From Auanema rhodensis (lineage: Eukaryota; Animalia; Nematoda), in contig OZ059895.1 of NCBI GenBank assembly GCA_964057225.1, positions 806,001 through 870,000 of the forward strand: a DNA stretch of 64,000 nt, read 5' to 3'. Below, piece by piece: positions 1-20,216 of the stretch. A program made the translations under genes and the position numbers. Under the pieces are notes generated by a model, which was not told the origin of the DNA, ran no database searches, and saw nothing but the letters and a program-made list of their open reading frames with translations. The stretch's first letter is position 1. Each line of letters begins with the position of its first letter.

Positions 1-3000
1 AATGCACTATACTACATTGAGAAACGCTTAATACAAAAATTAGTTATGATCGTTTGAAAAATGATGCATTAGTGTATGTTGAGTTTCCATGTACACTCAA
101 CATTGCTTCCAAAAACATTTTGACAAAAATTTTTTCGAAAAATTTCAAAATAATTTAGCAAAAAGTAGATGTTTTTAGATTTCATTTTTCAAGGCAAAGA
201 CGATAGACAATGTTATTCAACGAAAAAATTAATTCTTCAGGGTGAAAATCGAGGATATAAGTGTGAACTTATATCAATTGATATCTCGGTGCATTTTTAA
301 GCTAGCGCAAATCTGATAACACAGATCGACGCAGCTTAAAAATCCGCATCGAATGCACTATACTACATTGAGAAACGCTTAATACAAAAATTTGTTATGA
401 TCGTTTGAAAAATGATGCATTAGTGTATGTTGAGTTTCCATGTACACTCAACATTGCTTCCAAAAACATTTTGACAAAAATTTTTTCGAAACATTTCAAA
501 ATAATTTAGCAAAAAGTAGATGTTTTTAGATTCCTTTTTTCAAGGCAAAGACGATGGACAATGTTATTCAACGAAAAAATCAATTCTTCAGGGTGAAAAT
601 CGAGGATATAAGTGTGAACTTATATCAGTTGATATCTCGGTCCATTTTTAAGCTAGCGCAAATCTGATAACACAGATCGACGCAGCTTAAAAATCCGCAT
701 CGAATGCACTATACTACATTGAGAAACGCTTAATACAAAAAATAGTTATGATCGTTTGAAAAATGATGCATTAGTGTATGTTGAGTTTCCATGTACACTC
801 AACATTGCTTCCGAAAACATTTTGACAAAAATTTTTTCGAAAAATTTCAAAATAATTTAGCAAAAAGTAGATGTTTTTAGATTTCATTTTTCAAGGCAAA
901 GACGATAGACAATGTTATTCAACGAAAAAATTAATTCTTCAGGGTGAAAATCGAGGATATAAGTGTGAACTTATATCAGTTGATATCTCGGTGCATTTTT
1001 AAGTTAGCGCAAATCTGATAACACAGATCGACGCAGCTTAAAAATTCGGATCGAATGCACTATACTACATTGAGAAACGCTTAATACAAAAATTAGTTAT
1101 GATCGTTTGAAAAATGATGCATTAGTGTATGTTGAGTTTCCATGTACACTCAACATTGCTTCCGAAAACATTTTGACAAAAATTTTTTCGAAAAATTTCA
1201 AAATAATTTAGCAAAAAGTAGATGTTTTTAGATTTCATTTTTCAAGGCAAAGACGATAGACAATGTTATTCAACGAAAAAATTAATTCTTCAGGGTGAAA
1301 ATCGAGGATATAAGTGTGAACTTATATCAGTTGATATCTCGGTGCATTTTTAAGTTAGCGCAAATCTGATAACACAGATCGACGCAGCTTAAAAATTCGG
1401 ATCGAATGCACTATACTACATTGAGAAACGCTTAATACAAAAATTAGTTATGATCGTTTGAAAAATGATGCATTAGTGTATGTTGAGTTTCCATGTACAC
1501 TCAACATTGCTTCCAAAAACATTTTGACAAAAATTTTTTCGAAAAATTTCAAAATAATTTAGCAAAAAGTAGATGTTTTTAGATTCCATTTTTCAAGGCA
1601 AAGACAATGGACAATGTTATTCAACGAAAAAAATGATTCTTCAGGGTGAAAATCGAGGATATAAGTGTGAACTTATATCAGTTGATATCTCGGTGCATTT
1701 TTAAGCTAGCGTAAATATGATAACACAGATCGACGCAGCTTAAAAATCCGCATCGAATGCACTATACTACATTGAGAAACGCTTAATACAAAAATTTGTT
1801 ATGATCGTTTGAAAAATGATGCATTAGTGTATGTTGAGTTTCCATGTACACTCAACATTGCTTCCAAAAACATTTTGACAAAAATTTTTTCGAAAAATTT
1901 CAAAATAATTTAGCAAAAAGTAGATGTTTTTAGATTTCATTTTTCAAGGCAAAGACGATAGACAATGTTATTCAACGAAAAAATTAATTCTTCAGGGTGA
2001 AAATCGAGGATATAAGTGTGAACTTATATCAATTGATATCTCGGTGCATTTTTAAGCTAGCGCAAATCTGATAACACAGATCGACGCAGCTTAAAAATCC
2101 GCATCGAATGCACTATACTACATTGAGAAACGCTTAATACAAAAATTTGTTATGATCGTTTGAAAAATGATGCATTAGTGTATGTTGAGTTTCCATGTAC
2201 ACTCAACATTGCTTCCAAAAACATTTTGACAAAAATTTTTTCGAAACATTTTAAAATAATTTAGCAAAAAGTAGATGTTTTTAGATTCCTTTTTTCAAGG
2301 CAAAGACGATGGACAATGTTATTCAACGAAAAAATTAATTCTTCAGGGTGAAAATCGAGGATATAAGTGTGAACTTATATCAGTTGATATCTCGGTCCAT
2401 TTTTAAGCTAGCGCAAATCTGATAACACAGATCGACGCAGCTTAAAAATCCGCATCGAATGCACTATACTACATTGAGAAACGCTTAATACAAAAAATAG
2501 TTATGATCGTTTGAAAAATGATGCATTAGTGTATGTTGAGTTTCCATGTACACTCAACATTGCTTCCGAAAACATTTTGACAAAAATTTTTTCGAAAAAT
2601 TTCAAAATAATTTAGCAAAAAGTAGATGTTTTTAGATTTCATTTTTCAAGGCAAAGACGATAGACAATGTTATTCAACGAAAAAATTAATTCTTCAGGGT
2701 GAAAATCGAGGATATAAGTGTGAACTTATATCAGTTGATATCTCGGTGCATTTTTAAGTTAGCGCAAATCTGATAACACAGATCGACGCAGCTTAAAAAT
2801 TCGGATCGAATGCACTATACTACATTGAGAAACGCTTAATACAAAAATTAGTTATGATCGTTTGAAAAATGATGCATTAGTGTATGTTGAGTTTCCATGT
2901 ACACTCAACATTGCTTCCGAAAACATTTTGACAAAAATTTTTTCGAAAAATTCCAAAATAATTTAGCAAAAAGTAGATGTTTTTAGATTTCATTTTTCAA

Positions 3001-6000
3001 GGCAAAGACGATAGACAATGTTATTCAACGAAAAAATTAATTCTTCAGGGTGAAAATCGAGGATATAAGTGTGAACTTATATCAGTTGATATCTCGGTGC
3101 ATTTTTAAGTTAGCGCAAATCTGATAACACAGATCGACGCAGCTTAAAAATTCGGATCGAATGCACTATACTACATTGAGAAACGCTTAATACAAAAATT
3201 AGTTATGATCGTTTGAAAAATGATGCATTAGTGTATGTTGAGTTTCCATGTACACTCAACATTGCTTCCAAAAACATTTTGACAAAAATTTTTTCGAAAA
3301 ATTTCAAAATAATTTAGCAAAAAGTAGATGTTTTTAGATTCCATTTTTCAAGGCAAAGACAATGGACAATGTTATTCAACGAAAAAAATGATTCTTCAGG
3401 GTGAAAATCGAGGATATAAGTGTGAACTTATATCAGTTGATATCTCGGTGCATTTTTAAGCTAGCGTAAATATGATAACACAGATCTACGCAGCTTAAAA
3501 ATCCGCATCGAATGCACTATACTACATTGAGAAACGCTTAATACAAAAATTTGTTATGATCGTTTGAAAAATGATGCATTAGTGTATGTTGAGTTTCCAT
3601 GTACACTCAACATTGCTTCCAAAAACATTTTGACAAAAATTTTTTCGAAACATTTCAAATTAATTTAGCAAAAAGTAGATGTTTTTAGATTCCTTTTTTC
3701 AAGGCAAAGACGATGGACAATGTTATTCAACGAAAAAATTAATTCTTCAGGGTAAAAATCGAGGATATAAGTGTGAACTTATATCAGTTGATATCTCGGT
3801 GCATTTTTAAGCTAGCGTAAATATGATAACACAGATCGACGCAGCTTAAAAATCCGCATCGAATGCACTATACTACATTGAGAAACGCTTAATACAAAAA
3901 TTTGTTATGATCGTTTGAAAATGATGCATTAGTGTATGTTGAGTTTCCATGTACACTCAACATTGCTTCCAAAAACATTTTGACAAAAATTTTTTCGAAA
4001 CATTTCAAATTAATTTAGCAAAAAGTAGATGTTTTTAGATTCCTTTTTTCAAGGCAAAGACGATGGACAATGTTATTCAACGAAAAAATTAATTCTTCAG
4101 GGTAAAAATCGAGGATATAAGTGTGAACTTATATCAGTTGATATCTCGGTGCATTTTTAAGCTAGCGCAAATCTGATAACACAAATCGACGCAGCTTAAA
4201 AATCCGCATCGAATGCACTATACTACATTGAGAAACGCTTAATACAAAAATTAGTTATGATCGTTTGAAAAATGATGCATTAGTGTATGTTGAGTTTCCA
4301 TGTACACTCAACATTGCTTCCAAAAACATTTTGACAAAAATTTTTTCGAAAAATTTCAAAATAATTTAGCAAAAAGTAGATGTTTTTAGATTTCATTTTT
4401 CAAGGCAAAGACGATAGACAATGTTATTCAACGAAAAAATTAATTCTTCAGGGTGAAAATCGAGGATATAAGTGTGAACTTATATCAGTTGATATCTCGG
4501 TGCATTTTTAAGCTAGCGCAAATCTGATAACACAAATCGACGCAGCTTAAAAATCCGCATCGAATGCACTATACTACATTGAGAAACGCTTAATACAAAA
4601 ATTAGTTATGATCGTTTGAAAAATGATGCATTAGTGTATGTTGAGTTTCCATGTACACTCAACATTGCTTCCAAAAACATTTTGACAAAAATTTTTTCGA
4701 AAAATTTCAAAATAATTTAGCAAAAAGTAGATGTTTTTAGATTTCATTTTTCAAGGCAAAGACGATAGACAATGTTATTCAACGAAAAAATTAATTCTTC
4801 AGGGTGAAAATCGAGGATATAAGTGTGAACTTATATCAATTGATATCTCGGTGCATTTTTAAGCTAGCGCAAATCTGATAACACAGATCGACGCAGCTTA
4901 AAAATCCGCATCGAATGCACTATACTACATTGAGAAACGCTTAATACAAAAATTTGTTATGATCGTTTGAAAAATGATGCATTAGTGTATGTTGAGTTTC
5001 CATGTACACTCAACATTGCTTCCAAAAACATTTTGACAAAAATTTTTTCGAAACATTTCAAAATAATTTAGCAAAAAGTAGATGTTTTTAGATTCCTTTT
5101 TTCAAGGCAAAGACGATGGACAATGTTATTCAACGAAAAAATCAATTCTTCAGGGTGAAAATCGAGGATATAAGTGTGAACTTATATCAGTTGATATCTC
5201 GGTCCATTTTTAAGCTAGCGCAAATCTGATAACACAGATCGACGCAGCTTAAAAATCCGCATCGAATGCACTATACTACATTGAGAAACGCTTAATACAA
5301 AAAATAGTTATGATCGTTTGAAAAATGATGCATTAGTGTATGTTGAGTTTCCATGTACACTCAACATTGCTTCCGAAAACATTTTGACAAAAATTTTTTC
5401 GAAAAATTTCAAAATAATTTAGCAAAAAGTAGATGTTTTTAGATTTCATTTTTCAAGGCAAAGACGATAGACAATGTTATTCAACGAAAAAATTAATTCT
5501 TCAGGGTGAAAATCGAGGATATAAGTGTGAACTTATATCAGTTGATATCTCGGTGCATTTTTAAGTTAGCGCAAATCTGATAACACAGATCGACGCAGCT
5601 TAAAAATTCGGATCGAATGCACTATACTACATTGAGAAACGCTTAATACAAAAATTAGTTATGATCGTTTGAAAAATGATGCATTAGTGTATGTTGAGTT
5701 TCCATGTACACTCAACATTGCTTCCGAAAACATTTTGACAAAAATTTTTTCGAAAAATTTCAAAATAATTTAGCAAAAAGTAGATGTTTTTAGATTTCAT
5801 TTTTCAAGGCAAAGACGATAGACAATGTTATTCAACGAAAAAATTAATTCTTCAGGGTGAAAATCGAGGATATAAGTGTGAACTTATATCAGTTGATATC
5901 TCGGTGCATTTTTAAGTTAGCGCAAATCTGATAACACAGATCGACGCAGCTTAAAAATTCGGATCGAATGCACTATACTACATTGAGAAACGCTTAATAC

Positions 6001-9000
6001 AAAAATTAGTTATGATCGTTTGAAAAATGATGCATTAGTGTATGTTGAGTTTCCATGTACACTCAACATTGCTTCCAAAAACATTTTGACAAAAATTTTT
6101 TCGAAAAATTTCAAAATAATTTAGCAAAAAGTAGATGTTTTTAGATTCCATTTTTCAAGGCAAAGACAATGGACAATGTTATTCAACGAAAAAAATGATT
6201 CTTCAGGGTGAAAATCGAGGATATAAGTGTGAACTTATATCAGTTGATATCTCGGTGCATTTTTAAGCTAGCGTAAATATGATAACACAGATCGACGCAG
6301 CTTAAAAATCCGCATCGAATGCACTATACTACATTGAGAAACGCTTAATACAAAAATTTGTTATGATCGTTTGAAAAATGATGCATTAGTGTATGTTGAG
6401 TTTCCATGTACACTCAACATTGCTTCCAAAAACATTTTGACAAAAATTTTTTCGAAACATTTCAAATTAATTTAGCAAAAAGTAGATGTTTTTAGATTCC
6501 TTTTTTCAAGGCAAAGACGATGGACAATGTTATTCAACGAAAAAATTAATTCTTCAGGGTAAAAATCGAGGATATAAGTGTGAACTTATATCAGTTGATA
6601 TCTCGGTGCATTTTTAAGCTAGCGCAAATCTGATAACACAAATCGACGCAGCTTAAAAATCCGCATCGAATGCACTATACTACATTGAGAAACGCTTAAT
6701 ACAAAAATTAGTTATGATCGTTTGAAAAATGATGCATTAGTGTATGTTGAGTTTCCATGTACACTCAACATTGCTTCCAAAAACATTTTGACAAAAATTT
6801 TTTCGAAAAATTTCAAAATAATTTAGCAAAAAGTAGATGTTTTTAGATTTCATTTTTCAAGGCAAAGACGATAGACAATGTTATTCAACGAAAAAATTAA
6901 TTCTTCAGGGTGAAAATCGAGGATATAAGTGTGAACTTATATCAGTTGATATCTCGGTGCATTTTTAAGCTAGCGCAAATCTGATAACACAAATCGACGC
7001 AGCTTAAAAATCCGCATCGAATGCACTATACTACATTGAGAAACGCTCAATACAAAAATTAGTTATGATCGTTTGAAAAATGATGCATTAGTGTATGTTG
7101 AGTTTCCATGTACACTCAACATTGCTTCCAAAAACATTTTGACAAAAATTTTTTCGAAAAATTTCAAAATAATTTAGCAAAAAGTAGATGTTTTTAGATT
7201 TCATTTTTCAAGGCAAAGACGATAGACAATGTTATTCAACGAAAAAATTAATTCTTCAGGGTGAAAATCGAGGATATAAGTGTGAACTTATATCAATTGA
7301 TATCTCGGTGCATTTTTAAGCTAGCGCAAATCTGATAACACAGATCGACGCAGCTTAAAAATCCGCATCGAATGCACTATACTACATTGAGAAACGCTTA
7401 ATACAAAAATTAGTTATGATCGTTTGAAAAATGATGCATTAGTGTATGTTGAGTTTCCATGTACACTCAACATTGCTTCCAAAAACATTTTGACAAAAAT
7501 TTTTTCGAAAAATTTCAAAATAATTTAGCAAAAAGTAGATGTTTTTAGATTTCATTTTTCAAGGCAAAGACGATAGACAATGTTATTCAACGAAAAAATT
7601 AATTCTTCAGGGTGAAAATCGAGGATATAAGTGTGAACTTATATCAGTTGATATCTCGGTGCATTTTTAAGCTAGCGCAAATCTGATAACACAAATCGAC
7701 GCAGCTTAAAAATCCGCATCGAATGCACTATACTACATTGAGAAACGCTCAATACAAAAATTAGTTATGATCGTTTGAAAAATGATGCATTAGTGTATGT
7801 TGAGTTTCCATGTACACTCAACATTGCTTCCAAAAACATTTTGACAAAAATTTTTTCGAAAAATTTCAAAATAATTTAGCAAAAAGTAGATGTTTTTAGA
7901 TTTCATTTTTCAAGGCAAAGACGATAGACAATGTTATTCAACGAAAAAATTAATTCTTCAGGGTGAAAATCGAGGATATAAGTGTGAACTTATATCAATT
8001 GATATCTCGGTGCATTTTTAAGCTAGCGCAAATCTGATAACACAGATCGACGCAGCTTAAAAATCCGCATCGAATGCACTATACTACATTGAGAAACGCT
8101 TAATACAAAAATTTGTTATGATCGTTTGAAAAATGATGCATTAGTGTATGTTGAGTTTCCATGTACACTCAACATTGCTTCCAAAAACATTTTGACAAAA
8201 ATTTTTTCGAAACATTTCAAAATAATTTAGCAAAAAGTAGATGTTTTTAGATTCCTTTTTTCAAGGCAAAGACGATGGACAATGTTATTCAACGAAAAAA
8301 TTAATTCTTCAGGGTGAAAATCGAGGATATAAGTGTGAACTTATATCAGTTGATATCTCGGTCCATTTTTAAGCTAGCGCAAATCTGATAACACAGATCG
8401 ACGCAGCTTAAAAATCCGCATCGAATGCACTATACTACATTGAGAAACGCTTAATACAAAAAATAGTTATGATCGTTTGAAAAATGATGCATTAGTGTAT
8501 GTTGAGTTTCCATGTACACTCAACATTGCTTCCAAAAACATTTTGACAAAAATTTTTTCGAAAAATTTCAAAATAATTTAGCAAAAAGTAGATGTTTTTA
8601 GATTTCATTTTTCAAGGCAAAGACGATAGACAATGTTATTCAACGAAAAAATTAATTCTTCAGGGTAAAAATCGAGGATATAAGTGTGAACTTATATCAG
8701 TTGATATCTCGGTGCATTTTTAAGTTAGCGCAAATCTGATAACACAGATCGACGCAGCTTAAAAATTCGGATCGAATGCACTATACTACATTGAGAAACG
8801 CTTAATACAAAAATTAGTTATGATCGTTTGAAAAATGATGCATTAGTGTATGTTGAGTTTCCATGTACACTCAACATTGCTTCCGAAAACATTTTGACAA
8901 AAATTTTTTCGAAAAATTTCAAAATAATTTAGCAAAAAGTAGATGTTTTTAGATTTCATTTTTCAAGGCAAAGACGATAGACAATGTTATTCAACGAAAA

Positions 9001-12000
9001 AATTAATTCTTCAGGGTGAAAATCGAGGATATAAGTGTGAACTTATATCAGTTGATATCTCGGTGCATTTTTAAGTTAGCGCAAATCTGATAACACAGAT
9101 CGACGCAGCTTAAAAATTCGGATCGAATGCACTATACTACATTGAGAAACGCTTAATACAAAAATTAGTTATGATCGTTTGAAAAATGATGCATTAGTGT
9201 ATGTTGAGTTTCCATGTACACTCAACATTGCTTCCAAAAACATTTTGACAAAAATTTTTTCGAAAAATTTCAAAATAATTTAGCAATAAGTAGATGTTTT
9301 TAGATTCCATTTTTCAAGGCAAAGACAATGGACAATGTTATTCAACGAAAAAAATGATTCTTCAGGGTGAAAATCGAGGATATAAGTGTGAACTTATATC
9401 AGTTGATATCTCGGTGCATTTTTAAGCTAGCGTAAATATGATAACACAGATCGACGCAGCTTAAAAATCCGCATCGAATGCACTATACTACATTGAGAAA
9501 CGCTTAATACAAAAATTTGTTATGATCGTTTGAAAAATGATGCATTAGTGTATGTTGAGTTTCCATGTACACTCAACATTGCTTCCAAAAACATTTTGAC
9601 AAAAATTTTTTCGAAACATTTCAAATTAATTTAGCAAAAAGTAGATGTTTTTAGATTCCTTTTTTCAAGGCAAAGACGATGGACAATGTTATTCAACGAA
9701 AAAATTAATTCTTCAGGGTAAAAATCGAGGATATAAGTGTGAACTTATATCAGTTGATATCTCGGTGCATTTTTAAGCTAGCGCAAATCTGATAACACAA
9801 ATCGACGCAGCTTAAAAATCCGCATCGAATGCACTATACTACATTGAGAAACGCTTAATACAAAAATTAGTTATGATCGTTTGAAAAATGATGCATTAGT
9901 GTATGTTGAGTTTCCATGTACACTCAACATTGCTTCCAAAAACATTTTGACAAAAATTTTTTCGAAAAATTTCAAAATAATTTAGCAAAAAGTAGATGTT
10001 TTTAGATTTCATTTTTCAAGGCAAAGACGATAGACAATGTTATTCAACGAAAAAATTAATTCTTCAGGGTGAAAATCGAGGATATAAGTGTGAACTTATA
10101 TCAGTTGATATCTCGGTGCATTTTTAAGCTAGCGCAAATCTGATAACACAGATCGACGCAGCTTAAAAATCCGCATCGAATGCACTATACTACATTGAGA
10201 AACGCTTAATACAAAAATTTGTTATGATCGTTTGAAAAATGATGCATTAGTGTATGTTGAGTTTCCATGTACACTCAACATTGCTTCCAAAAACATTTTG
10301 ACAAAAATTTTTTCGAAACATTTCAAAATAATTTAGCAAAAAGTAGATGTTTTTAGATTCCTTTTTTCAAGGCAAAGACGATGGACAATGTTATTCAACG
10401 AAAAAATTAATTCTTCAGGGTGAAAATCGAGGATATAAGTGTGAACTTATATCAGTTGATATCTCGGTCCATTTTTAAGCTAGCGCAAATCTGATAACAC
10501 AGATCGACGCAGCTTAAAAATCCGCATCGAATGCACTATACTACATTGAGAAACGCTTAATACAAAAATTAGTTATGATCGTTTGAAAAATGATGCATTA
10601 GTGTATGTTGAGTTTCCATGTACACTCAACATTGCTTCCGAAAACATTTTGACAAAAATTTTTTCGAAAAATTTCAAAATAATTTAGCAAAAAGTAGATG
10701 TTTTTAGATTTCATTTTTCAAGGCAAAGACGATAGACAATGTTATTCAACGAAAAAATTAATTCTTCAGGGTGAAAATCGAGGATATAAGTGTGAACTTA
10801 TATCAGTTGATATCTCGGTGCATTTTTAAGTTAGCGCAAATCTGATAACACAGATCGACGCAGCTTAAAAATTCGGATCGAATGCACTATACTACATTGA
10901 GAAACGCTTAATACAAAAATTAGTTATGATCGTTTGAAAAATGATGCATTAGTGTATGTTGAGTTTCCATGTACACTCAACATTGCTTCCAAAAACATTT
11001 TGACAAAAATTTTTTCGAAAAATTTCAAAATAATTTAGCAAAAAGTAGATGTTTTTAGATTCCATTTTTCAAGGCAAAGACAATGGACAATGTTATTCAA
11101 CGAAAAAAATGATTCTTCAGGGTGAAAATCGAGGATATAAGTGTGAACTTATATCAGTTGATATCTCGGTGCATTTTTAAGCTAGCGTAAATATGATAAC
11201 ACAGATCGACGCAGCTTAAAAATCCGCATCGAATGCACTATACTACATTGAGAAACGCTTAATACAAAAATTTGTTATGATCGTTTGAAAAATGATGCAT
11301 TAGTGTATGTTGAGTTTCCATGTACACTCAACATTGCTTCCAAAAACATTTTGACAAAAATTTTTTCGAAACATTTCAAATTAATTTAGCAAAAAGTAGA
11401 TGTTTTTAGATTCCTTTTTTCAAGGCAAAGACGATGGACAATGTTATTCAACGAAAAAATTAATTCTTCAGGGTAAAAATCGAGGATATAAGTGTGAACT
11501 TATATCAGTTGATATCTCGGTGCATTTTTAAGCTAGCGCAAATCTGATAACACAAATCGACGCAGCTTAAAAATCCGCATCGAATGCACTATACTACATT
11601 GAGAAACGCTTAATACAAAAATTAGTTATGATCGTTTGAAAAATGATGCATTAGTGTATGTTGAGTTTCCATGTACACTCAACATTGCTTCCAAAAACAT
11701 TTTGACAAAAATTTTTTCGAAAAATTTCAAAATAATTTAGCAAAAAGTAGATGTTTTTAGATTTCATTTTTCAAGGCAAAGACGATAGACAATGTTATTC
11801 AACGAAAAAATTAATTCTTCAGGGTGAAAATCGAGGATATAAGTGTGAACTTATATCAGTTGATATCTCGGTGCATTTTTAAGTTAGCGCAAATCTGATA
11901 ACACAGATCGACGCAGCTTAAAAATTCGGATCGAATGCACTATACTACATTGAGAAACGCTTAATACAAAAATTTGTTATGATCGTTTGAAAAATGATGC

Positions 12001-12594
12001 ATTAGTGTATGTTGAGTTTCCATGTACACTCAACATTGCTTCCAAAAACATTTTGACAAAAATTTTTTCGAAAAATTTCAAAATAATTTAGCAAAAAGTA
12101 GATGTTTTTAGATTCCTTTTTTCAAGGCAAAGACGATGGACAATGTTATTCAACGAAAAAATTAATTCTTCAGGGTGAAAATCGAGGATATAAGTGTGAA
12201 CTTATATCAGTTGATATCTCGGTGCATTTTTAAGCTAGCGCAAATCTGATAACACAAATCGACGCAGCTTAAAAATCCGCATCGAATGCACTATACTACA
12301 TTGAGAAACGCTTAATACAAAAATTAGTTATGATCGTTTGAAAAATGATGCATTAGTGTATGTTGAGTTTCCATGTACACTCAACATTGCTTCCGAAAAC
12401 ATTTTGACAAAAATTTTTTCGAAAAATTTCAAAATAATTTAGCAAAAAGTAGATGTTTTTAGATTTCATTTTTCAAGGCAAAGACGATAGACAATGTTAT
12501 TCAACGAAAAAATTAATTCTTCAGGGTGAAAATCGAGGATATAAGTGTGAACTTATATCAGTTGATATCTCGGTGCATTTTTAAGCTAGCGCAA
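1..12594. repeat. 351-bp tandem satellite array, left block (~36 monomers, open at window start)
   Basis: AATGCACTATACTACATTGAG recurs at 1, 352, 703, 1054 and so on, every 351 bp (one 1-bp deletion near 3920). Copies are near-identical and differ by a few recurrent substitutions. The last monomer stops at ...TTAAGCTAGCGCAA (12594). Confidence 0.99.
12591..12594. repeat. Left copy of apparent target-site duplication GCAA
   Basis: The satellite reads ...CTAGC-GCAA-ATCTG. GCAA is present on both sides of the element (12591-12594 and 20213-20216). Its CAA also matches LTR bases 4-6, so the exact boundary is ambiguous. Confidence 0.75.
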
Positions 12595-12968
12595 GAATAT
12601 GGCTATAGATACTAAAATGAATAGTATAAATAAAGATAAATATATAATATAATTTATATAAAATATTAAGATAACAATTATTCATGAAAAAATTAAATAA
12701 AATGAATAATTTGAATAAAATGACCCATTGATAAAACAATCCATAGTAATCGCGCTCCATTTAGAGATTGTTGGTAAACAGTGAACTGTTGATAATCAAC
12801 TACCGTAATCTGATTAAAACAATATTTAGTTGTTTTTTTGTCCTAAAATTATTGTGATAAGGAATTTTTTTATATTTTTTTCAGTTTGGAATTTTCTCTT
12901 GAATTTTTTTGTATTTTTTTTTGTTTTTTTAAATAAATCTTTTTCTTTTTATTTTTCGTTCTTTGATT
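12592..12968 (+). repeat. 5' LTR (377 bp; lacks the first TGT of the 3' LTR)
   Basis: Matches 19836-20212 except C12758 vs T20002 (by eye). Ends ...CGTTCTTTGATT immediately before the PBS. Confidence 0.97.
12932..12937 (+). promoter_or_regulatory. Candidate polyadenylation signal AATAAA in LTR (copy at 20176-20181)
   Basis: AATAAA lies ~30 nt before the LTR end and is followed by U-rich sequence. The LTR is AT-rich and has other AATAAA hexamers, so the assignment is positional only. Confidence 0.4.
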
Positions 12969-12983
12969 TGGGGGCCGAACCGG
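12969..12983 (+). promoter_or_regulatory. Primer-binding site complementary to tRNA-Pro 3' end
   Basis: TGGGGGCCGAACCGG sits directly after the 5' LTR. Its reverse complement CCGGTTCGGCCC-CCA matches the C. elegans-type tRNA-Pro acceptor end as I recall it. Confidence 0.92.
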
Positions 12984-13397
12984 TCTTCACTATTTTATTG
13001 TTTGGGTTGAGCTAATTGCTCATATAACCCTGTTTGAAAGCTCGAATAGAGTTTGGTGAAAAAGTCACTGCTACCTGAATAGGGTTCTGTTTGTATTCAT
13101 TCAATTTTGTTTGGTATTTGCCGAATAAAAGTGAAGTTTACAGAACAATTATCATTTGACAGTGTTGGTAACAACAGTGTCTCTTGGTTTATTGTTGTAC
13201 GGTTGTTTTTGGTTAAAGTGTTTACTTTTAAACACTTTTTCTGATTTCTTCCGCTGTGAACTACATTCAGAACTTGGGTAGTAGTAACTAATATCAAGTA
13301 AATTCAATTTTCTTGATATAAGTGCTTGTTTGATTCTTTCAAATAGCAATAAATTAGTAGAGGAATTTCTAGTAATTTTTTTTCATTGATAGGTGAA

Positions 13398-14090
13398 ATG
13401 TCATTTGTGAATGAATTGCTCGATATGGACTTCGAGAGCGCATTTGAAGAGGTAATGTTGAATTCATTCATCTCTGAAATATTATCGGCTATTGAGCCGT
13501 TGAATGATTGTTTACGTAAAGATTTTACGGAAAAAATCAGAAATTCTGCTGAGAAAAGGAGAGCAGAGCAGAAAGTTGCTAATTTGATAAACTCAATGAA
13601 GCAAAATTTAGCTAGTGAATTGCGAAAAGGGCAAAATTGGAGATTTATCCAGTCCATTATTACAGTAATGAACAAGAGTGGGCTCAAAAAGCCTTCAGAG
13701 TTGGGTAATACTCTGAAGTTAGCTGATAAACGAGCGGAAACAACTAAATTCATTTGTGAGATTTTCCAACTCAATGAAAGTGAGATAGTGGACGAGATGA
13801 GGGCGATTAATAGTACTATGAAAGATTTATGCGATTTTTTCAAATGTGATAAAAAATCTTTGAAGCATGAAATATTTAATAGTTTTAATTTGCAGAGATC
13901 AGCAGCTATCGAGAGCCAAGCGCAATTAGCTATGGCGGATATGATGATTGATGACAAAGCAGCAGGTAAAATAGAAGAGGAAAATTCTGAAATTGAATAT
14001 ATTTTACAGTTGCATCGACAGAAGGAGTTGAGAACAACTCAGAAATGGTTGACGGATGTTCAACAGGAACAGGAAAAAAAGAGGAATTAG
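13398..14090 (+). CDS. ORF1, 230-aa alpha-helical/coiled-coil-like protein; probable N-terminal (matrix-like) part of Gag
   Basis: Open frame from ATG 13398 (the track starts at TTG 13386) to TAG 14088-14090. It is E/K/L/M-rich and almost free of Pro and Gly. It is the first long ORF after the PBS and overlaps ORF2, which lies in the -1 frame. Confidence 0.8.
   Translation: MSFVNELLDMDFESAFEEVMLNSFISEILSAIEPLNDCLRKDFTEKIRNSAEKRRAEQKVANLINSMKQNLASELRKGQNWRFIQSIITVMNKSGLKKPSELGNTLKLADKRAETTKFICEIFQLNESEIVDEMRAINSTMKDLCDFFKCDKKSLKHEIFNSFNLQRSAAIESQAQLAMADMMIDDKAAGKIEEENSEIEYILQLHRQKELRTTQKWLTDVQQEQEKKRN
13966..14009 (+). other. Predicted 44-nt spliceosomal intron joining ORF1 to ORF2 (spliced CDS 13398-13965 + 14010-19687, 2081 aa)
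   Basis: CAG|GTAAAA donor, TATATTTTACAG|T acceptor, AT-rich, 44 nt. Removal switches ORF1 into the ORF2 frame and deletes that frame's last stop (TGA 13994-13996). Confidence 0.65.
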
Positions 14091-17000
14091 ACTCCAAGGG
14101 TGAGTCATCTTTGCCTTTTAATGGACTCAGCGCGCAGAATGAAGCGTTTTTGGACATAATGCGAGCGCAATTGCTGCCTGATGTTCCAAGTTTTTCGAGT
14201 GGGTCGTTCGAGAAATGGAACCATTTTGTAGAAGGGTTTCACCTGAAATACCCAAAAAGCACGTTGTCGGCAAGCGGCCGCAGAACGCTGTTTGTAGAAA
14301 AATTAAGAGGAGAGGCGAGAGATAGGTATGATGAGTTGCCTGAAATAATCAGAAACAGTTCGCTCGACAAAATAATAGAGGAACTGAATAAGCAACATGA
14401 GTATTCTAAGAGAGCAAGTAGGTTAGATGCCATAGCTGCTCTTAAATCTTTGAAGTTTGACAACAATAGCAATCTAATAAGCTTTTGTAAGAAACTAGAA
14501 GAAACTTCTAGGAAGGCTTACCCCGGATTGTCTATGTCAAAGTTATCGTTCACAAGAGCTCAAGTCTTGTATGAGGTACTCAGAGAATGTACTTGTGCAT
14601 TACAAGTACTTGAGACAATAGAGACTAGTGAAGAAGGGGAGGTGTATGAGAAAGTGAAAGAGGTCGCTTTACGTTGTGAAAGAAATAAGCGCATTCACTA
14701 CAATCAGCATAGAAAGGACAGAATACCTGAAGTAAACCTGCCCAGGCTGAGATTTTTGAAGCAGAATAATACTGCTAGTGGTCAACACATGACCAATCGT
14801 GACAGTTACGTAACTGAAAAGGTTCGTAATTTTCCACAGAGAAAAGAAGTTATTTGTTACATATGTAACAGAAGTGGTCATATAGCAACACATTGTGCTG
14901 AAAGAAAACGACCATCAGACAATTCTAAAAGAATTGAACAAGAACAGAACAATATGGGTTCTGTTATGAATAAGCAAGCTGTTGCATGGAACAAAACTAT
15001 CAAAACATGCAACAACAGCTATGATGCAAAATTGATTGGTGAGCAGAGTTTACTACCTATGTTAATCTGCAGCATGAGAAATAAAAAAGTTCTTATTGAC
15101 ACGGGATCGCAAATATCAGTGATGTCGTCACAAGCTCTAGTTAATTTGATGAATGAAGGGGTTGACTTAGATAGAAGTGTAACTCAACTTCCTTGGAATG
15201 GAGATAAGTTCATAGCGAATGCCTCGGGTACGCGAATGAATTTTGTTGGAGCAATAAGCTGTGAAGTTTATTGCTCAGAAAGTAAAAAAACTGCACAAGT
15301 ATGTTTTTTGGTGAGAAAAAGTAGAGATGATTCTATACTTATTGGTACGAATGCCCTGAAAGATTTGGGCATATCTTTGAAGTTTTATAGAAAGGAGGCC
15401 ATAGCCTTACAGAGAGTTTATATACCTGCGAATAAAAGTAGAACGTTACAAATCTCATGTGACGAGCAGAAAGATAGCTTACTGGTATCCCATAGGAGTG
15501 ATATACTCACGGGAATATGTAAAGTGGACACCAATAGTTCCACTACAGTGATTGTGGCTAACATGACATGCCAGCCAACCACGATAAAGAAAGGAGAGAT
15601 TGTCGGTAAATGGGAGTCCGAGAATTGGACTGAAAAGCTGACTGCACTGAATGACGAATTGAAAACCGAATCAATTGATGTGTTAGAGATGCGTATGTTA
15701 GATCAATACGCTAAACCAACAGATCCGGTTGGAAGAGCAGAAAAAGTCATTGCTGTCTTAGAAGAGAAAAGTGGTGTAACCTTTGATCCAAAGGTCAAGG
15801 ACCTTTTAGAAGAATATTCATCGATATTTGCGTTGGTTGATGCTGATCTGCAACAAACAAATATTGTCACTATGAATATTGATACGGGAGATGCGAGTCC
15901 TATTCGTCAAAAAGTACGACCAGTGCCGTTTGGTATAAAAAATGAGTTTAGAGGTATTATAAAAGACCTATTACAAAGAGGGGTTATAGAACCTAGCCAA
16001 AGCGCATGGGCAAGCCCTGTAGTCTTAGTAGAGAAAAAAGACAAATCTATCAGACTCTGTATAGATTATAGAGAATTGAATAAGGTCCTGAAACTAGATG
16101 CTTATCCAATACCAACGATAGATATCATTCTTAGATCGATGAACGGGAAGAAAATATTTTCCACATTTGATCTATCGTCGGGGTTTTGGCAAATAAAACT
16201 TTCCGAAGAAGATAAAGAAAAAACATCTTTCGTGACCAGCGAAGGATCTTTTCAATTTGTGGTATGTCCTTTTGGCTTAGCAACTAGTCCACCAACATTC
16301 CAAAGAATGATGGACAAAGCTCTGGGAGATTTACTCAAAAGTAATGAAGTTTTTCTTTATATAGACGATATAATGATTGCAACAGATACTTTCGAAAGAC
16401 ATTTTGAAGTTATGAAGAATGTTTTTGAAGCGCTGAAACAAGCAAATTTATCGTTGAAAGCGGTTAAGTGTAAACTTTTACAAAACGAAGTGGATTATTT
16501 GGGCCACAAAGTAAACGGAGAAGGTATTCACGCCGATCCGAATAAAATTGAGGCAATTTTAAAATATCCCTTACCAAATACGATTGCTGAATTAAGAACA
16601 TTCTTGGGAATGGCGTCGTATTACAGAAAATTTGTGCTAAATTTCGCTGCTATTGCTAAACCAATGCACGAAATGACAAGTGAAAAAAGTAAATGGGAAT
16701 GGACCCAAGAGAGAAAAGAGGCTTTTGAAGTTCTAAAGAAAAAGCTTACTCAAGCTCCTGTACTAATACAGCCTGACTGGGAAGGTGCAAATAGCGGTAA
16801 AAACCCATATATTATATACACTGATGCGTGTGCATCTGGTGTAGGAGCGGTGTTATGTCAAAAAGCAAAAGATAATTTTTTACACCCGATTGCCTTCGTT
16901 TCTAAAGGTTTGTCAAAAGCGGAAAAAAATTATCATGTAACAGATTTAGAAGCTCTGGCTATTGTATTTGCGCTAGAGAAGTTTCAATATTACATTTATA

Positions 17001-19687
17001 ATACTGAAAAAACAGTTGTGAAAACTGATCATCAACCATTGACATGTCTGTTCAAGAAGACAGCAAGTGGGAGAATGTTGAGATGGAGCCTGATTGTACA
17101 GCGATACAGAATAACTATTGAGTACGTCAAAGGAAAAGGAAATGTTATAGCGGATGCATTATCGCGAGGTGTTCCAGTCCAAGATAATTTTGATCTTGAA
17201 AGTGACTCAGATATAAAATATATTTGTTCGTTACAAATGAGAGATAATATAGCTGAATTGATGATGGATGAAAATTACAAAAATATTATCAATCTCAGAA
17301 GTGATGAAAAACTCACAGAGAGAATTTTTCTGCCAAAACTGGCACATAAACTATTTGTCGGTGATTTTCTAATTTCAAAAGAAAACTTGTATTATATCAA
17401 CGAGAAGGGTGAGAAATTATTAGTCATTCCTCCGTCAAAAAGATATGACATATATAAAGAAGCTCATGAAGGATTATTTGGAGCTCATTTTGGACCGAAA
17501 AAAATTATACGTTCTCTAAAGAGACAATTTTTTTGGGACGGTCTGGATTCAGATGTACGGAAATGGCATAGTGAGTGCAAAAAGTGTTTTTTAGCAAATA
17601 GTCGAACGAGTCCAGTTCCACTATTACAGCCTTATAGAACGGAAAAACCATTCGAATTGGTTGGGATTGATGTGATGGATCTGGGTCGAACAACATCAAA
17701 CAATCGTTATGTTGTTGCTATAATAGATCACTTCAGTAAATGGTTAGGTGCATATGCTGTACCAGACAAATCAGCAGCAACTATAGCAAATGTGATAGTT
17801 GTAAAATGGATTTGTGAAGGGGCGAAATGGCCTAAGAAATTTTTATCCGATAAAGGAACTGAATTTTTGAACAAAGTAGTAGATGAAATAAAAAGAATCA
17901 CAAATATTGAATGGATTACTACTATGGGTTATAACCCAAGGGAAAATGGTATAACTGAACGAGTTAATCAGACTATTCAAAGAGCGTTGAAAAAAGCAGG
18001 TAATAGTCCTTCAGAATGGGATAAACTTTTACCATTTGTGACGTATGCTTACAACACAACGCCTCATGAAGCAACAGGCGAATCCCCATTTTTCATTTTA
18101 CATGGGTTTGAACCTTATCTAGTGTCTAACATTGTCGAACCTGACAAACCAAAACTAGTAGAATATGAACTGGATGAATACAAAGTAGATCTTCTAGAAG
18201 GGTTTCGGTTATCAAGGAAACTCGCCATTGAAAAAAATGATCAGGAACGCGAAAAGTTCAAAATGTATTATGATTCTAAGAAAAGTAAACAACAAATGGT
18301 TTTCCACATCGGAGATAGAGTTTACTTAAAAATTATCAATGAAAAACATAAGCATGTTAATAAAAAATTGGTAAATAATTTACGAGGTCCATATCGGATT
18401 ATTGAGTGTTATAAGACATCTGCTCTTATAACAGAATTAACAGGGAAAAATGAACCCATAAAAATTCAGTATGATTTGTTAGTGAAACTCCCTAGTGCAA
18501 TAGATGACATACCAGTTGAGACTAAAAAGAAAAGGAAACAGACCAAAATTAATGAGCTCTATTGCAGGAATATCACCATCACTCATAAAGACGCTTGTCA
18601 CCCTTTATATGAGTGTGATGGAAAATACGTGATGCCTGATGGAAACCATCAAATGTGCTCCTTTAAAACTGCTACGTATGGCGATATATTGGATAACAGA
18701 TGTCCAACATTATTGAGAGGAATCAGAGTAAAGAACACGTTTCGTCTAGCGCAGTTTTTATGCATCATGAAAGATCCAAGAATTTGGATATCCGAAAAGA
18801 TTAATTTTATCAATAGGATGAACGTACATCCGGATGCGGAAAGCATGGCTGAAGCGATCTTAATTCAAAAAAAATTTTGTTTACATGCAAAAGTCAATTT
18901 CTCGGTAATCGAGAATTTTCATATCTCTTGTTCAAATAACGTTGAATTTAATATGTCAGCAGATGACATTTCCAAAGCTTTTTTGTTGGCTGCTGAAAAA
19001 ATAGCCCGTGTTGTAAAACCTTCTAAAAAAGATGTGCTTTTTGTACCGAAAAGAATGAACGCGGTAAACGACTTATACTTTCCATTTGGTGACTGTATAG
19101 TCTATGAAAATTTGACTGGAGAAGTCATCCCTAAGTTGTTGAATTATAATAATGTTAGGTATGTATTGGTTGTAGTGCCTGTGATTTGTGAAGAAGATGA
19201 GATTAGTAAGATAACAAAACAGTTGGGGAGATTAGGATGTGCCCTAGAATCCCAGATTTTGTTAATAAGTCCTATCGCAAGATATGACGATAATAAATTT
19301 TTTGAAAGTATGAGAACGTGGCAGAAGGTCCATGAAATGTTCGCAGCTGAGAGCGCTACTCTTAATAATAAATTGTGGGTCCAGTACATAGGGTGTCGAG
19401 GAGACGATCTTGCGCTTGTTACTAACTACTGGTTTGCCGGTGGGCCGTTACCATATCAGAAATCTTCTGATCGTATTTTGTTTGAGCATGTAAAAAGTTT
19501 TTTTGCAATGCTACAAAAAAAATTGCTATCTGTGGGTGTCGCATCTATGCTAAATAGAATTGAAAGGCGGAAACAAAAGCCAGCGACAAATATAAAGCCA
19601 TATGAGAAATTCTCTTATAAGAAGAATTCTGCGAATTTGCACAAAACCCATAAGCCTCAACAACAGTTTAAAAAAACAGCACCATAA
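14045..19687 (+). CDS. pol: Gag-Pol polyprotein (capsid, zinc knuckle, aspartic protease, RT, RNase H, integrase, C-terminal extension); frame open from 13997
   Basis: 1880-aa uninterrupted ORF. Motifs: LRGEARDRY capsid-like, CYICNRSGHIATHC, LIDTGS, WASPVVLV..RLCIDYRELN, YIDD, YTDAC..G and TDHQPL (RNase H), H-x6-H..CKKC, D..D(35)E, RGPY. Confidence 0.97.
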   Translation: MVDGCSTGTGKKEELDSKGESSLPFNGLSAQNEAFLDIMRAQLLPDVPSFSSGSFEKWNHFVEGFHLKYPKSTLSASGRRTLFVEKLRGEARDRYDELPEIIRNSSLDKIIEELNKQHEYSKRASRLDAIAALKSLKFDNNSNLISFCKKLEETSRKAYPGLSMSKLSFTRAQVLYEVLRECTCALQVLETIETSEEGEVYEKVKEVALRCERNKRIHYNQHRKDRIPEVNLPRLRFLKQNNTASGQHMTNRDSYVTEKVRNFPQRKEVICYICNRSGHIATHCAERKRPSDNSKRIEQEQNNMGSVMNKQAVAWNKTIKTCNNSYDAKLIGEQSLLPMLICSMRNKKVLIDTGSQISVMSSQALVNLMNEGVDLDRSVTQLPWNGDKFIANASGTRMNFVGAISCEVYCSESKKTAQVCFLVRKSRDDSILIGTNALKDLGISLKFYRKEAIALQRVYIPANKSRTLQISCDEQKDSLLVSHRSDILTGICKVDTNSSTTVIVANMTCQPTTIKKGEIVGKWESENWTEKLTALNDELKTESIDVLEMRMLDQYAKPTDPVGRAEKVIAVLEEKSGVTFDPKVKDLLEEYSSIFALVDADLQQTNIVTMNIDTGDASPIRQKVRPVPFGIKNEFRGIIKDLLQRGVIEPSQSAWASPVVLVEKKDKSIRLCIDYRELNKVLKLDAYPIPTIDIILRSMNGKKIFSTFDLSSGFWQIKLSEEDKEKTSFVTSEGSFQFVVCPFGLATSPPTFQRMMDKALGDLLKSNEVFLYIDDIMIATDTFERHFEVMKNVFEALKQANLSLKAVKCKLLQNEVDYLGHKVNGEGIHADPNKIEAILKYPLPNTIAELRTFLGMASYYRKFVLNFAAIAKPMHEMTSEKSKWEWTQERKEAFEVLKKKLTQAPVLIQPDWEGANSGKNPYIIYTDACASGVGAVLCQKAKDNFLHPIAFVSKGLSKAEKNYHVTDLEALAIVFALEKFQYYIYNTEKTVVKTDHQPLTCLFKKTASGRMLRWSLIVQRYRITIEYVKGKGNVIADALSRGVPVQDNFDLESDSDIKYICSLQMRDNIAELMMDENYKNIINLRSDEKLTERIFLPKLAHKLFVGDFLISKENLYYINEKGEKLLVIPPSKRYDIYKEAHEGLFGAHFGPKKIIRSLKRQFFWDGLDSDVRKWHSECKKCFLANSRTSPVPLLQPYRTEKPFELVGIDVMDLGRTTSNNRYVVAIIDHFSKWLGAYAVPDKSAATIANVIVVKWICEGAKWPKKFLSDKGTEFLNKVVDEIKRITNIEWITTMGYNPRENGITERVNQTIQRALKKAGNSPSEWDKLLPFVTYAYNTTPHEATGESPFFILHGFEPYLVSNIVEPDKPKLVEYELDEYKVDLLEGFRLSRKLAIEKNDQEREKFKMYYDSKKSKQQMVFHIGDRVYLKIINEKHKHVNKKLVNNLRGPYRIIECYKTSALITELTGKNEPIKIQYDLLVKLPSAIDDIPVETKKKRKQTKINELYCRNITITHKDACHPLYECDGKYVMPDGNHQMCSFKTATYGDILDNRCPTLLRGIRVKNTFRLAQFLCIMKDPRIWISEKINFINRMNVHPDAESMAEAILIQKKFCLHAKVNFSVIENFHISCSNNVEFNMSADDISKAFLLAAEKIARVVKPSKKDVLFVPKRMNAVNDLYFPFGDCIVYENLTGEVIPKLLNYNNVRYVLVVVPVICEEDEISKITKQLGRLGCALESQILLISPIARYDDNKFFESMRTWQKVHEMFAAESATLNNKLWVQYIGCRGDDLALVTNYWFAGGPLPYQKSSDRILFEHVKSFFAMLQKKLLSVGVASMLNRIERRKQKPATNIKPYEKFSYKKNSANLHKTHKPQQQFKKTAP
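14855..14896 (+). other. CCHC zinc knuckle (nucleocapsid)
   Basis: C-YI-C-NRSG-H-IATH-C = CX2CX4HX4C. Confidence 0.95.
15098..15109 (+). other. Aspartic protease active site DTGS
   Basis: VLIDTGSQISVM, with downstream ILIGTNAL. Confidence 0.93.
16358..16369 (+). other. Reverse transcriptase catalytic motif YIDD
   Basis: FLYIDDIMI, preceded by PFGLATSPPTFQRMM and FDLSSGFWQI. Confidence 0.96.
17465..18394 (+). other. Integrase: HHCC zinc finger, DDE core and GPY/F motif
   Basis: H17465/H17486..CKKC. Catalytic D17669, D17849 and E17957 show D-35-E spacing. GPY at 18386-18394. Confidence 0.93.
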
Positions 19688-19819
19688 CTATTTTCTTGTT
19701 GAAATTTGAATTTTCTCATGTATGTTGTAAATGTTTATTTTTAGTGTTCTTTTTAATGAAACTGTTAAACTATTGAATAAATAGTAATAAGAAGAATTTT
19801 TTCTCGGGACGAGAAATTT

Positions 19820-19832
19820 GAGAGGCCGGGGA
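19820..19832 (+). promoter_or_regulatory. Polypurine tract (plus-strand primer)
   Basis: GAGAGGCCGGGGA immediately before the TGT start of the 3' LTR. Confidence 0.85.
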
Positions 19833-20212
19833 TGTCAAGAATATGGCTATAGATACTAAAATGAATAGTATAAATAAAGATAAATATATAATATAATTTA
19901 TATAAAATATTAAGATAACAATTATTCATGAAAAAATTAAATAAAATGAATAATTTGAATAAAATGACCCATTGATAAAACAATCCATAGTAATCGCGCT
20001 CTATTTAGAGATTGTTGGTAAACAGTGAACTGTTGATAATCAACTACCGTAATCTGATTAAAACAATATTTAGTTGTTTTTTTGTCCTAAAATTATTGTG
20101 ATAAGGAATTTTTTTATATTTTTTTCAGTTTGGAATTTTCTCTTGAATTTTTTTGTATTTTTTTTTGTTTTTTTAAATAAATCTTTTTCTTTTTATTTTT
20201 CGTTCTTTGATT
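19833..20212 (+). repeat. 3' LTR (380 bp, TGTCAAG...CTTTGATT)
   Basis: Starts with TGT right after the PPT. Direct repeat of 12592-12968. The satellite resumes at 20213. Confidence 0.97.
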
Positions 20213-20216
20213 GCAA
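20213..20216. repeat. Right copy of apparent target-site duplication GCAA
   Basis: The satellite resumes GCAA-ATCTGATAAC, repeating the four bases that ended the left flank. Confidence 0.75.

What the first reader, a model, noticed from the sequence alone, without database searches (positions are those of the whole stretch)
13960..14047. 44-nt intron that fuses ORF1 to Gag-Pol: a candidate splicing switch between genome RNA and mRNA
Seen: CAG|GTAAAATAGAAGAGGAAAATTCTGAAATTGAATATATTTTACAG|TTG (13966-14009). Removing it joins G13965 to T14010-T14011 (GTT) and enters the ORF2 frame. It also deletes that frame's last stop (TGA 13994-13996), giving one 2081-aa protein (...DDKAA-V-ASTEGVENNSE-MVDG...). 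Established: nematode introns peak near 45-50 nt with such sites, and reverse transcription of spliced RNA erases introns. Inference: the intron survives in a freshly transposed copy only if unspliced RNA is the packaged genome (encoding just ORF1). Capsid and all enzymes would then need splicing, which inverts the usual retroelement logic and gives the host a possible control point.
Basis: partly seen in the sequence, partly recalled or inferred. Interest (0 to 1): 0.85.

Follow-up and report, generated by a model that had tools for sequence, protein, structure and literature searches.

The report
Intron of a Cer1-like worm retrotransposon
The 44-base intron is real and is cut out in a sequenced transcript, but it likely belongs to the spliced accessory message of a Cer1-like nematode retrotransposon, whose protein would help export the unspliced genome RNA, and its apparent role in making Gag-Pol likely comes from a one-base frame break in this particular copy.

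Summary
The intron (13966-14009) is real. One contig, in 1 of 3 runs laid, shows exactly this junction. The same contig removes a second intron (13452-13895), starts with the end of the nematode SL1 leader 5 nt before the ORF1 ATG, and stops just before a GTGAG donor at 14100.

This matches C. elegans Cer1: identical tRNA-Pro primer site; unspliced RNA read as one Gag-Pol frame; an SL1-spliced mRNA with one alternative-frame exon that jumps to a post-integrase domain to make the export factor CERV. Here that domain's low-confidence model best matches Rag GTPases and also matches the RRS1 TIR domain, as CERV's does.

The contig's copy differs from the window in the length of the A-run at 14074-14080. 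By phase arithmetic it has no ORF1/ORF2 break, and its spliced form does not enter Gag-Pol. The claimed inversion of retroelement logic is therefore likely an effect of a broken copy. The final splice was not seen, and the RNA evidence is one contig. The scan noted Cer1-like accessory genes in other genomes' gypsy elements, not this one.

The parts
12595..12968 (+). 5' LTR (374 bp; may start up to 3 nt earlier)
   Evidence: 1 mismatch in 374 against the 3' LTR; left edge ambiguous
12969..12982 (+). Primer-binding site, tRNA-Pro type
   Evidence: 14 of 14 nt identical to the Cer1 PBS printed in PMC3315495; directly after the LTR, single occurrence in the window
13375..13392 (+). SL1 trans-splice acceptor (U-rich tract plus AG at 13391-13392)
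   Evidence: The 8 loose 5' letters of the contig plus this AG equal the last 10 nt of the SL1 primer in PMC3315495; those 8 letters occur 0 times in the window
13393..13451 (+). Exon 1 of the spliced mRNA (ATG at 13398, 18 codons, gag frame)
   Evidence: contig piece 1; phases
13398..14090 (+). ORF1 (230 aa), likely the helical N-terminal part of Gag, cut off in this copy by the frame break
   Evidence: parallel with the coiled-coil N-terminus of Cer1 GAG; no homologues found
13452..13895 (+). Intron A, 444 nt, in-frame within ORF1 (GAG|GTAATG...TTTGCAG|AG)
   Evidence: joint 'skips 444, GT..AG'; sites
13896..13965 (+). Exon 2 (70 nt, gag frame)
13966..14009 (+). Intron B, 44 nt (the finding); switches the spliced mRNA out of the gag frame
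14010..14099 (+). Exon 3, dual-coding; read in an alternative frame in the spliced mRNA (3' end inferred)
   Evidence: contig covers it and ends at 14099; the only GT/GC in 14059-14103 is at 14100
14074..14080 (+). A-run: likely site of this copy's frame break between ORF1 and ORF2; also forms an A_AAA_AAG heptamer (14075-14081) in the ORF1 frame
   Evidence: the contig's copy differs in run length here (table 4)
14100..14105 (+). Predicted donor GTGAGT (intron C)
   Evidence: the donor of Cer1's fourth, alternative-frame exon is also gtgag
13997..19687 (+). ORF2 (1896 codons stop to stop): capsid-like region, one CCHC, protease motif, RT, RNase H, integrase, post-integrase domain
   Evidence: Pfam RVT_1 2.9e-36, RT_RNaseH 3.6e-33, Integrase_H2C2 2.6e-14, rve 7.6e-08; weak DUF1759, Retrotrans_gag and zf-CCHC below cut-off; DTGS and YIDD motifs
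18562..18567 (+). Predicted acceptor TTGCAG at the start of the post-integrase domain (junction not observed)
   Evidence: only TTnYAG between 18198 and 19174; its phase fits the contig's copy, not the window copy
18568..19687 (+). Post-integrase domain, likely a CERV C-terminal equivalent: Cys-rich part, then an alpha/beta 'G-like' domain at about 19010-19546
   Evidence: model pLDDT 48; VIA-align best hits Rag GTPases Z 8.5, 7.7, 7.5, and RRS1 TIR 4c6t_A Z 7.4
19820..19832 (+). Purine-rich tract before the 3' LTR
   Evidence: sequence
19833..20212 (+). 3' LTR (starts TG; ends GATT)

Best explanation
This is a recently inserted Ty3/gypsy retrotransposon of a nematode whose RNA is SL1 trans-spliced and loses two introns, including the 44-nt one, and it likely works like C. 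elegans Cer1: unspliced RNA would be both the genome and the single-frame Gag-Pol message, while the spliced RNA would encode a Rev-like export protein (CERV-like). Shown: SL1 addition at 13392/13393, removal of introns 13452-13895 and 13966-14009, the Cer1-type primer site, the Ty3/gypsy domain order. Inferred: after exon 3 (alternative frame) the mRNA splices from 14100 to about 18568, skipping capsid and pol, to give a protein of about 440 aa; that protein promotes nuclear export of unspliced RNA; and the ORF1/ORF2 split in the window copy is a one-base homopolymer lesion that makes intron B look like a Gag-Pol switch.
For: 1. One contig carries the SL1 end and both GT-AG joints. 2. The PBS is 14/14 identical to Cer1's and abuts the LTR. 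3. Cer1's spliced mRNA has 5' exons in the gag frame, one exon in a unique frame with a gtgag donor, then a last exon after integrase; the same layout is seen or predicted here. 4. The contig's copy differs in A-run length. By arithmetic that one difference puts ORF1 and ORF2 in a single frame and also puts exon 3 in phase with the only TTnYAG acceptor in the ~1 kb around the integrase/post-integrase border (phase match has 1-in-3 odds by chance). 5. Across 13966-14073 the ORF1 frame has a coding-type GC pattern (0.50/0.22/0.36; ORF2 body 0.44/0.34/0.32), whereas the ORF2-frame reading is G/S/T/N-rich. 6. The post-integrase domain model has five strands alternating with helices and matches Rag GTPases (8fw5_E Z 8.5, rmsd 3.5, 128 aligned; 6nzd_G Z 7.7) and 4c6t_A (Z 7.4, rmsd 3.3, 119 aligned); Sun 2023 reports a Rag GTPase and 4c6t-A for CERV's G domain.
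Against: RNA evidence is a single 230-nt contig at depth 5.62, in 1 of 3 runs whose RNA status is only guessed; it comes from a different copy or allele (5 other letters plus 1 gap, positions of the letters not listed). The 14099-to-18568 junction was not seen. A branch-caused contig end would be expected to include the G shared by 14100 and 18568, so the end at 14099 does not by itself point to that acceptor. A weaker AG at 18482 is in phase for the window copy. The fold model is low-confidence (pLDDT 48; whole domain 37), and Z of 7-8 is typical of common folds, with SDR and GDSL folds tied. There is no CxC motif or S/T-P in the Cys-rich part, unlike the Cer1 M domain, one CCHC instead of three, and no Cer1 sequence was available for direct comparison. 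The assembly looks accurate in homopolymers, so the break is probably real DNA in a copy young enough to have 373/374 identical LTR bases.
Confidence: 0.8

Rival explanations
1. One reading: the family design is ORF1 on the unspliced genome RNA, and Gag-Pol is made only after removal of the 44-nt intron.
For: In the window copy the splice does fuse ORF1 to ORF2 by arithmetic (2081 codons). The junction is used. The copy is young and the assembly seems accurate. Splice-dependent Pol has a precedent in foamy viruses (PMC3705302 passages).
Against: In the one transcript seen, the copy's A-run length takes the spliced frame out of Gag-Pol. That transcript also drops 444 nt of ORF1 and ends at a strong donor. 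Cer1 uses the same layout with an unspliced Gag-Pol message.
Confidence: 0.07
2. ORF1 and ORF2 are joined in this family by programmed -1 ribosomal frameshifting, or transcriptional slippage, at A_AAA_AAG (14075-14081); the splicing is still Cer1-like.
For: A perfect X_XXY_YYZ heptamer lies in the ORF1 frame 6 nt before its stop, and ORF2 is in the -1 frame.
Against: There is no stimulatory structure downstream (z -0.51, -0.05, +1.10). The shift would fall upstream of capsid, which is needed in bulk (established knowledge of gag-pol frameshifts). The contig's copy differs in run length, so it would need no shift. Cer1 is a single ORF. Leaky slippage in this one copy is not excluded.
Confidence: 0.09
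3. The frame break is an assembly error and the real locus is an intact Cer1-like element (a variant of the best explanation).
For: The break sits in a 7-nt homopolymer, and the only independent sequence covering it differs there.
Against: Only 5 of 158 satellite spacings differ from 351 bp, 4 of them at one shared site. Seven A/T runs of 6-9 nt match in length between the two LTRs. The contig is from another copy.
Confidence: 0.12

Closest known systems
Cer1 and its CERV protein, C. elegans (PMC3315495 passages; PMC10309623 abstract, passages, sections 7, 9, 10 part 1, 28 parts 1-2)
   Same: tRNA-Pro PBS next to the 5' LTR; SL1 trans-splicing before the ATG; 5' exons in the gag frame followed by one alternative-frame exon with a gtgag donor; long helical Gag N-terminus before the capsid-like domain; non-Env domain after integrase, with a predicted alpha/beta fold resembling Rag GTPases and the RRS1 TIR domain; a TTGCAG acceptor as in the C. 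latens exon 5.
   Different: Two gag-frame 5' exons here against three; one CCHC against three; about 2,100 aa of coding capacity against 2272; predicted accessory product about 440 aa against 517; no CRC loop or S214-P equivalent visible; frame broken in this copy; inserted in a 351-bp satellite; last splice not observed; sequence identity to Cer1 not measured.
Foamy virus spliced pol mRNA (PMC3705302 passages)
   Different: In foamy viruses Gag comes from unspliced RNA and Pol has its own start; here the observed spliced RNA does not enter Gag-Pol.
HIV Rev-type export factors (as compared in PMC3315495, passage read)
   Same: A protein from a multiply spliced mRNA enabling export of unspliced genome RNA (inferred here by analogy to CERV).
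   Different: No sequence or structural relation was tested; CERV is reported to be unlike retroviral proteins.

Membership tests
Ty3/gypsy LTR retrotransposon | LTRs, PBS, PPT and domain order PR-RT-RH-IN | tested here: met
Cer1 family (criteria of PMC10309623 S1 legend) | Flanked by direct repeats over 100 bp | tested here: met
   374-bp LTRs, 1 mismatch
Cer1 family (criteria of PMC10309623 S1 legend) | tRNA-Pro PBS adjacent to the 5' LTR | tested here: met
   14/14 match at 12969
Cer1 family (criteria of PMC10309623 S1 legend) | Significant homology to the Cer1 POL domain | not testable with these tools
   No Cer1 sequence came back from any search (39 hits, none named as a nematode element); the paper's alignments are image files
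Cer1/CERV expression scheme | SL1-led spliced mRNA with gag-frame 5' exons and one alternative-frame exon | tested here: met
   one contig, 1 of 3 runs
Cer1/CERV expression scheme | Last splice skips capsid and pol to the post-integrase ORF | tested here: inconclusive
   donor and phase-matched acceptor present; junction not covered by any contig
Cer1/CERV expression scheme | Single uninterrupted gag-pol frame on unspliced RNA | tested here: inconclusive
   broken in the window copy; not broken at that place in the contig's copy by arithmetic; no other full copy available
Cer1/CERV expression scheme | G domain: five-stranded alpha/beta fold resembling GTPases | tested here: inconclusive
   pLDDT 48 model; Rag GTPases Z 8.5-7.3 and 4c6t_A Z 7.4, tied with other Rossmann-like folds
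C. elegans Cer1 traits (not among the three family criteria) | M-domain CRC loop with S214-P; three CCHC fingers | tested here: not met
   Cys positions show no CxC; the only S/T-P in the post-integrase domain lies in the G-like part; one CCHC
Cer1/CERV expression scheme | Accessory protein required for genome-RNA export | not testable with these tools
   needs experiments in the host
Programmed -1 frameshift element | Slippery heptamer plus a downstream stimulatory structure | tested here: inconclusive
   heptamer present; no fold beyond shuffles; pseudoknot stems only 5-9 bp

The most novel reading that the evidence does not exclude
The A-run at 14074-14080 is a designed, length-variable switch. 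Copies or transcripts with one length make Gag-Pol from unspliced RNA and the CERV-like factor from spliced RNA. Those with the window's length make Gag-Pol only through the 44-nt splice or by slippage, so one homopolymer toggles which RNA class encodes the capsid. A milder and likelier novelty (about 0.6): this is a highly diverged Cer1/CERV system with transcript evidence for the cerv-type splicing outside C. elegans.
Probability: 0.1. Interest if true: 0.75.

Novelty: new member of a known kind. Interest (0 to 1): 0.35.

Why it matters
[quoted passage not shown] An element with the same primer site, SL1 and alternative-frame exon layout and a similar predicted fold, yet lacking the motifs thought essential (CRC loop, S214-P), would show that the Rev-like export strategy is old and conserved in architecture, not in sequence. 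It would also be a natural comparison for mapping what CERV needs. It is a caution too: one homopolymer indel in a young copy can mimic a novel splice-dependent or frameshift-dependent Gag-Pol scheme.

Tried and rejected
Own-genome search for other copies: no genome held. Sequencing runs: no RNA holder listed; three same-species runs were offered; X1 and X3 gave nothing at 85% or 80% likeness, and no contig covered 14653-20212. These blanks are not evidence. Homologue searches: 39 generic gypsy-type hits for ORF2, none aligning to ORF1 or the post-integrase domain at E up to 1; ORF1 against longer proteins, 0 of 1426 candidates; post-integrase domain, 0 hits among 1.84 billion representatives and 0 of 1195 candidates; no Pfam family. 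The ESM Atlas did not answer. Related loci by RT: none among 137 metagenome and 10 viral pattern matches. BFVD fold search: no match at E up to 0.001. Rfam and tRNA scans: nothing significant. Rejected: that the contig's 3' tail comes from another exon (no GT/GC in 14059-14099); that the 5' loose end is a cis exon of the element (0 matches). Literature searches listed no title describing Cer1-type splicing outside C. elegans; most were seen as listings only, and subscription papers are not covered. The image supplements of the Cer1 papers (alignments) could not be seen and bear on the homology claim.

Full report
Setting. The window is a 351-bp satellite array (160 anchors; 153 spacings of 351, 4 of 352, 1 of 350, and one 7973-bp gap), interrupted by one LTR retrotransposon. 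Its LTRs (12595-12968 and 19839-20212) differ at 1 of 374 positions. Only three stop-to-stop frames of 150 aa or more exist: ORF1 (ATG 13398, stop 14088-14090, 230 aa), ORF2 (13997-19687), and an antisense frame over ORF1. ORF2 carries a weak capsid-like signal, one CCHC knuckle, a protease motif, RT, RNase H and integrase in Ty3/gypsy order, followed by about 370 aa with no Pfam match.

Observation check. The 44-nt GT-AG segment, its phase, the stop at 13994 and the 2081-codon arithmetic are all correct. A comparable short intron arose in 2.15% of 2000 codon shuffles. No run was on record as an RNA holder, but three same-species runs were offered. In 1 of the 3 (X2) a 230-nt contig, depth 5.62, joins 13965 to 14010 exactly. 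The intron is used.

What else the contig shows. It also joins 13451 to 13896 (444 nt, GT-AG, in frame within ORF1). Its 8 unaligned 5' letters plus the AG at 13391-13392 equal the last 10 nt of the SL1 primer printed in PMC3315495, and those 8 letters are absent from the window. So this is an SL1 trans-spliced nematode mRNA starting 5 nt before the ORF1 ATG (inference from these matches). It ends at 14099, immediately before GTGAGT. It has 5 other letters relative to the window and a one-base length difference in the A-run at 14074-14080, so it comes from another copy or allele. A second contig (14484-14652, no differences, depth 2.36) lies in the capsid region and may be unspliced RNA or DNA.

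By phase arithmetic, the contig's copy does not have the break between ORF1 and ORF2 when unspliced. When spliced, it leaves the Gag-Pol frame and would meet a stop inside the donor at 14101-14103 unless it is spliced again there. That lesion is probably real DNA: the satellite has few length slips, and seven A/T runs of 6-9 nt agree between the LTRs.

The known system. The primer site at 12969 is identical over 14 nt to the tRNA-Pro site of C. elegans Cer1, which PMC10309623 uses as a family criterion. In Cer1 an unspliced 8-kb RNA encodes GAG-POL as one frame and is not SL1-spliced. A 2.4-kb spliced RNA, found with and without SL1, uses three gag-frame exons, a fourth exon in a unique frame whose donor is gtgag, and a fifth exon after integrase, making CERV, which is needed for genome-RNA export. 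Here there are two gag-frame exons, then an alternative-frame exon ending at GTGAG. The only TTnYAG between 18198 and 19174 is TTGCAG at 18567, at the start of the post-integrase domain, and its phase fits the contig's copy. The predicted product is about 440 aa (Cer1: 517). A single-sequence model of 19010-19546 (pLDDT 48) has five strands alternating with helices. It aligns best to Rag GTPases (8fw5_E Z 8.5, rmsd 3.5, 128 aligned; 6nzd_G 7.7; 8yl2_A 7.5) and also to the RRS1 TIR chain 4c6t_A (Z 7.4). A Rag GTPase and 4c6t-A are the matches reported for CERV's G domain.

Results against this reading. The RNA evidence is one low-depth contig from another copy, and the positions of its 5 other letters were not listed. 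The last junction was not seen. A contig ending at a splice branch should have included the G shared by 14100 and 18568. A weaker AG at 18482 is in phase for the window copy. The fold Z-scores are in the range of common folds, tied with SDR and GDSL proteins, and the whole-domain model reached only pLDDT 37. The Cer1 CRC loop, S214-P and three CCHC fingers are not visible. Homology to Cer1 POL could not be measured, and no relative with flanks was found.

Rivals. Splice-made Gag-Pol has a partial precedent in foamy virus Pol but conflicts with the only transcript (0.07). A programmed -1 frameshift has a heptamer at 14075-14081 but no downstream structure (z -0.51 to +1.10) and would sit upstream of capsid (0.09). 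An assembly error at an otherwise intact Cer1-like locus is a variant of the main reading (0.12).

Papers seen. PMC10309623: abstract, passages, sections 7, 9, 10 (part 1 of 2) and 28 (parts 1-2 of 3). PMC3315495 and PMC3705302: passages. All others: search listings only; none of the titles describes cerv-type splicing outside C. elegans. Image supplements were not visible. Earlier scan notes describe Cer1-like spliced accessory genes in three other gypsy elements, none at this place or on similar sequence; I reached the Cer1 reading before seeing them.

Verdict. The intron is real and was correctly spotted, but it is most likely part of a known scheme: a diverged Cer1-like element with a cerv-type spliced mRNA, read from a copy with a frame break. 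New member of a known kind; interest 0.35.

Noticed in passing
window 12592-12595, 12968, 19833-19839, 20212-20216: LTR ends are atypical. The 3' LTR starts with TG after the purine tract, but the 5' LTR lacks its first 3-6 nt. Both LTRs end in GATT rather than CA, with the PBS directly following. The target duplication is ambiguous (1-4 bp, at most GCAA).
   Followed up: partly
window 1-12594 and 20213-64000: A very homogeneous 351-bp satellite (mostly 97-100% identical units, 31% GC); no tRNA gene in the window and no significant Rfam match in the units scanned. Four units share a one-base insertion at the same site.
   Followed up: partly
window 13304-14038 (- strand): A 244-codon stop-free antisense frame overlaps almost all of ORF1; possibly a by-product of codon usage.
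   Followed up: no
window 18521-18541: A basic stretch (KKKRK) at the end of integrase, just upstream of the predicted 18567 acceptor; a candidate nuclear localisation signal of integrase.
   Followed up: no
window 15390 and 14326, 14422, 18000: Further splice-like sites inside gag-pol: a strong-looking acceptor at 15390 just after the protease, in the same phase as 18567, and several AG|GT donors. They could give other spliced RNAs.
   Followed up: no
window 19776-19781 and 12750-12755: An AATAAA lies 89 nt after the ORF2 stop, upstream of the 3' LTR. The single LTR mismatch is at LTR position 164, just after a TCGCGC motif reminiscent of the E2F site noted for Cer1 LTRs.
   Followed up: no
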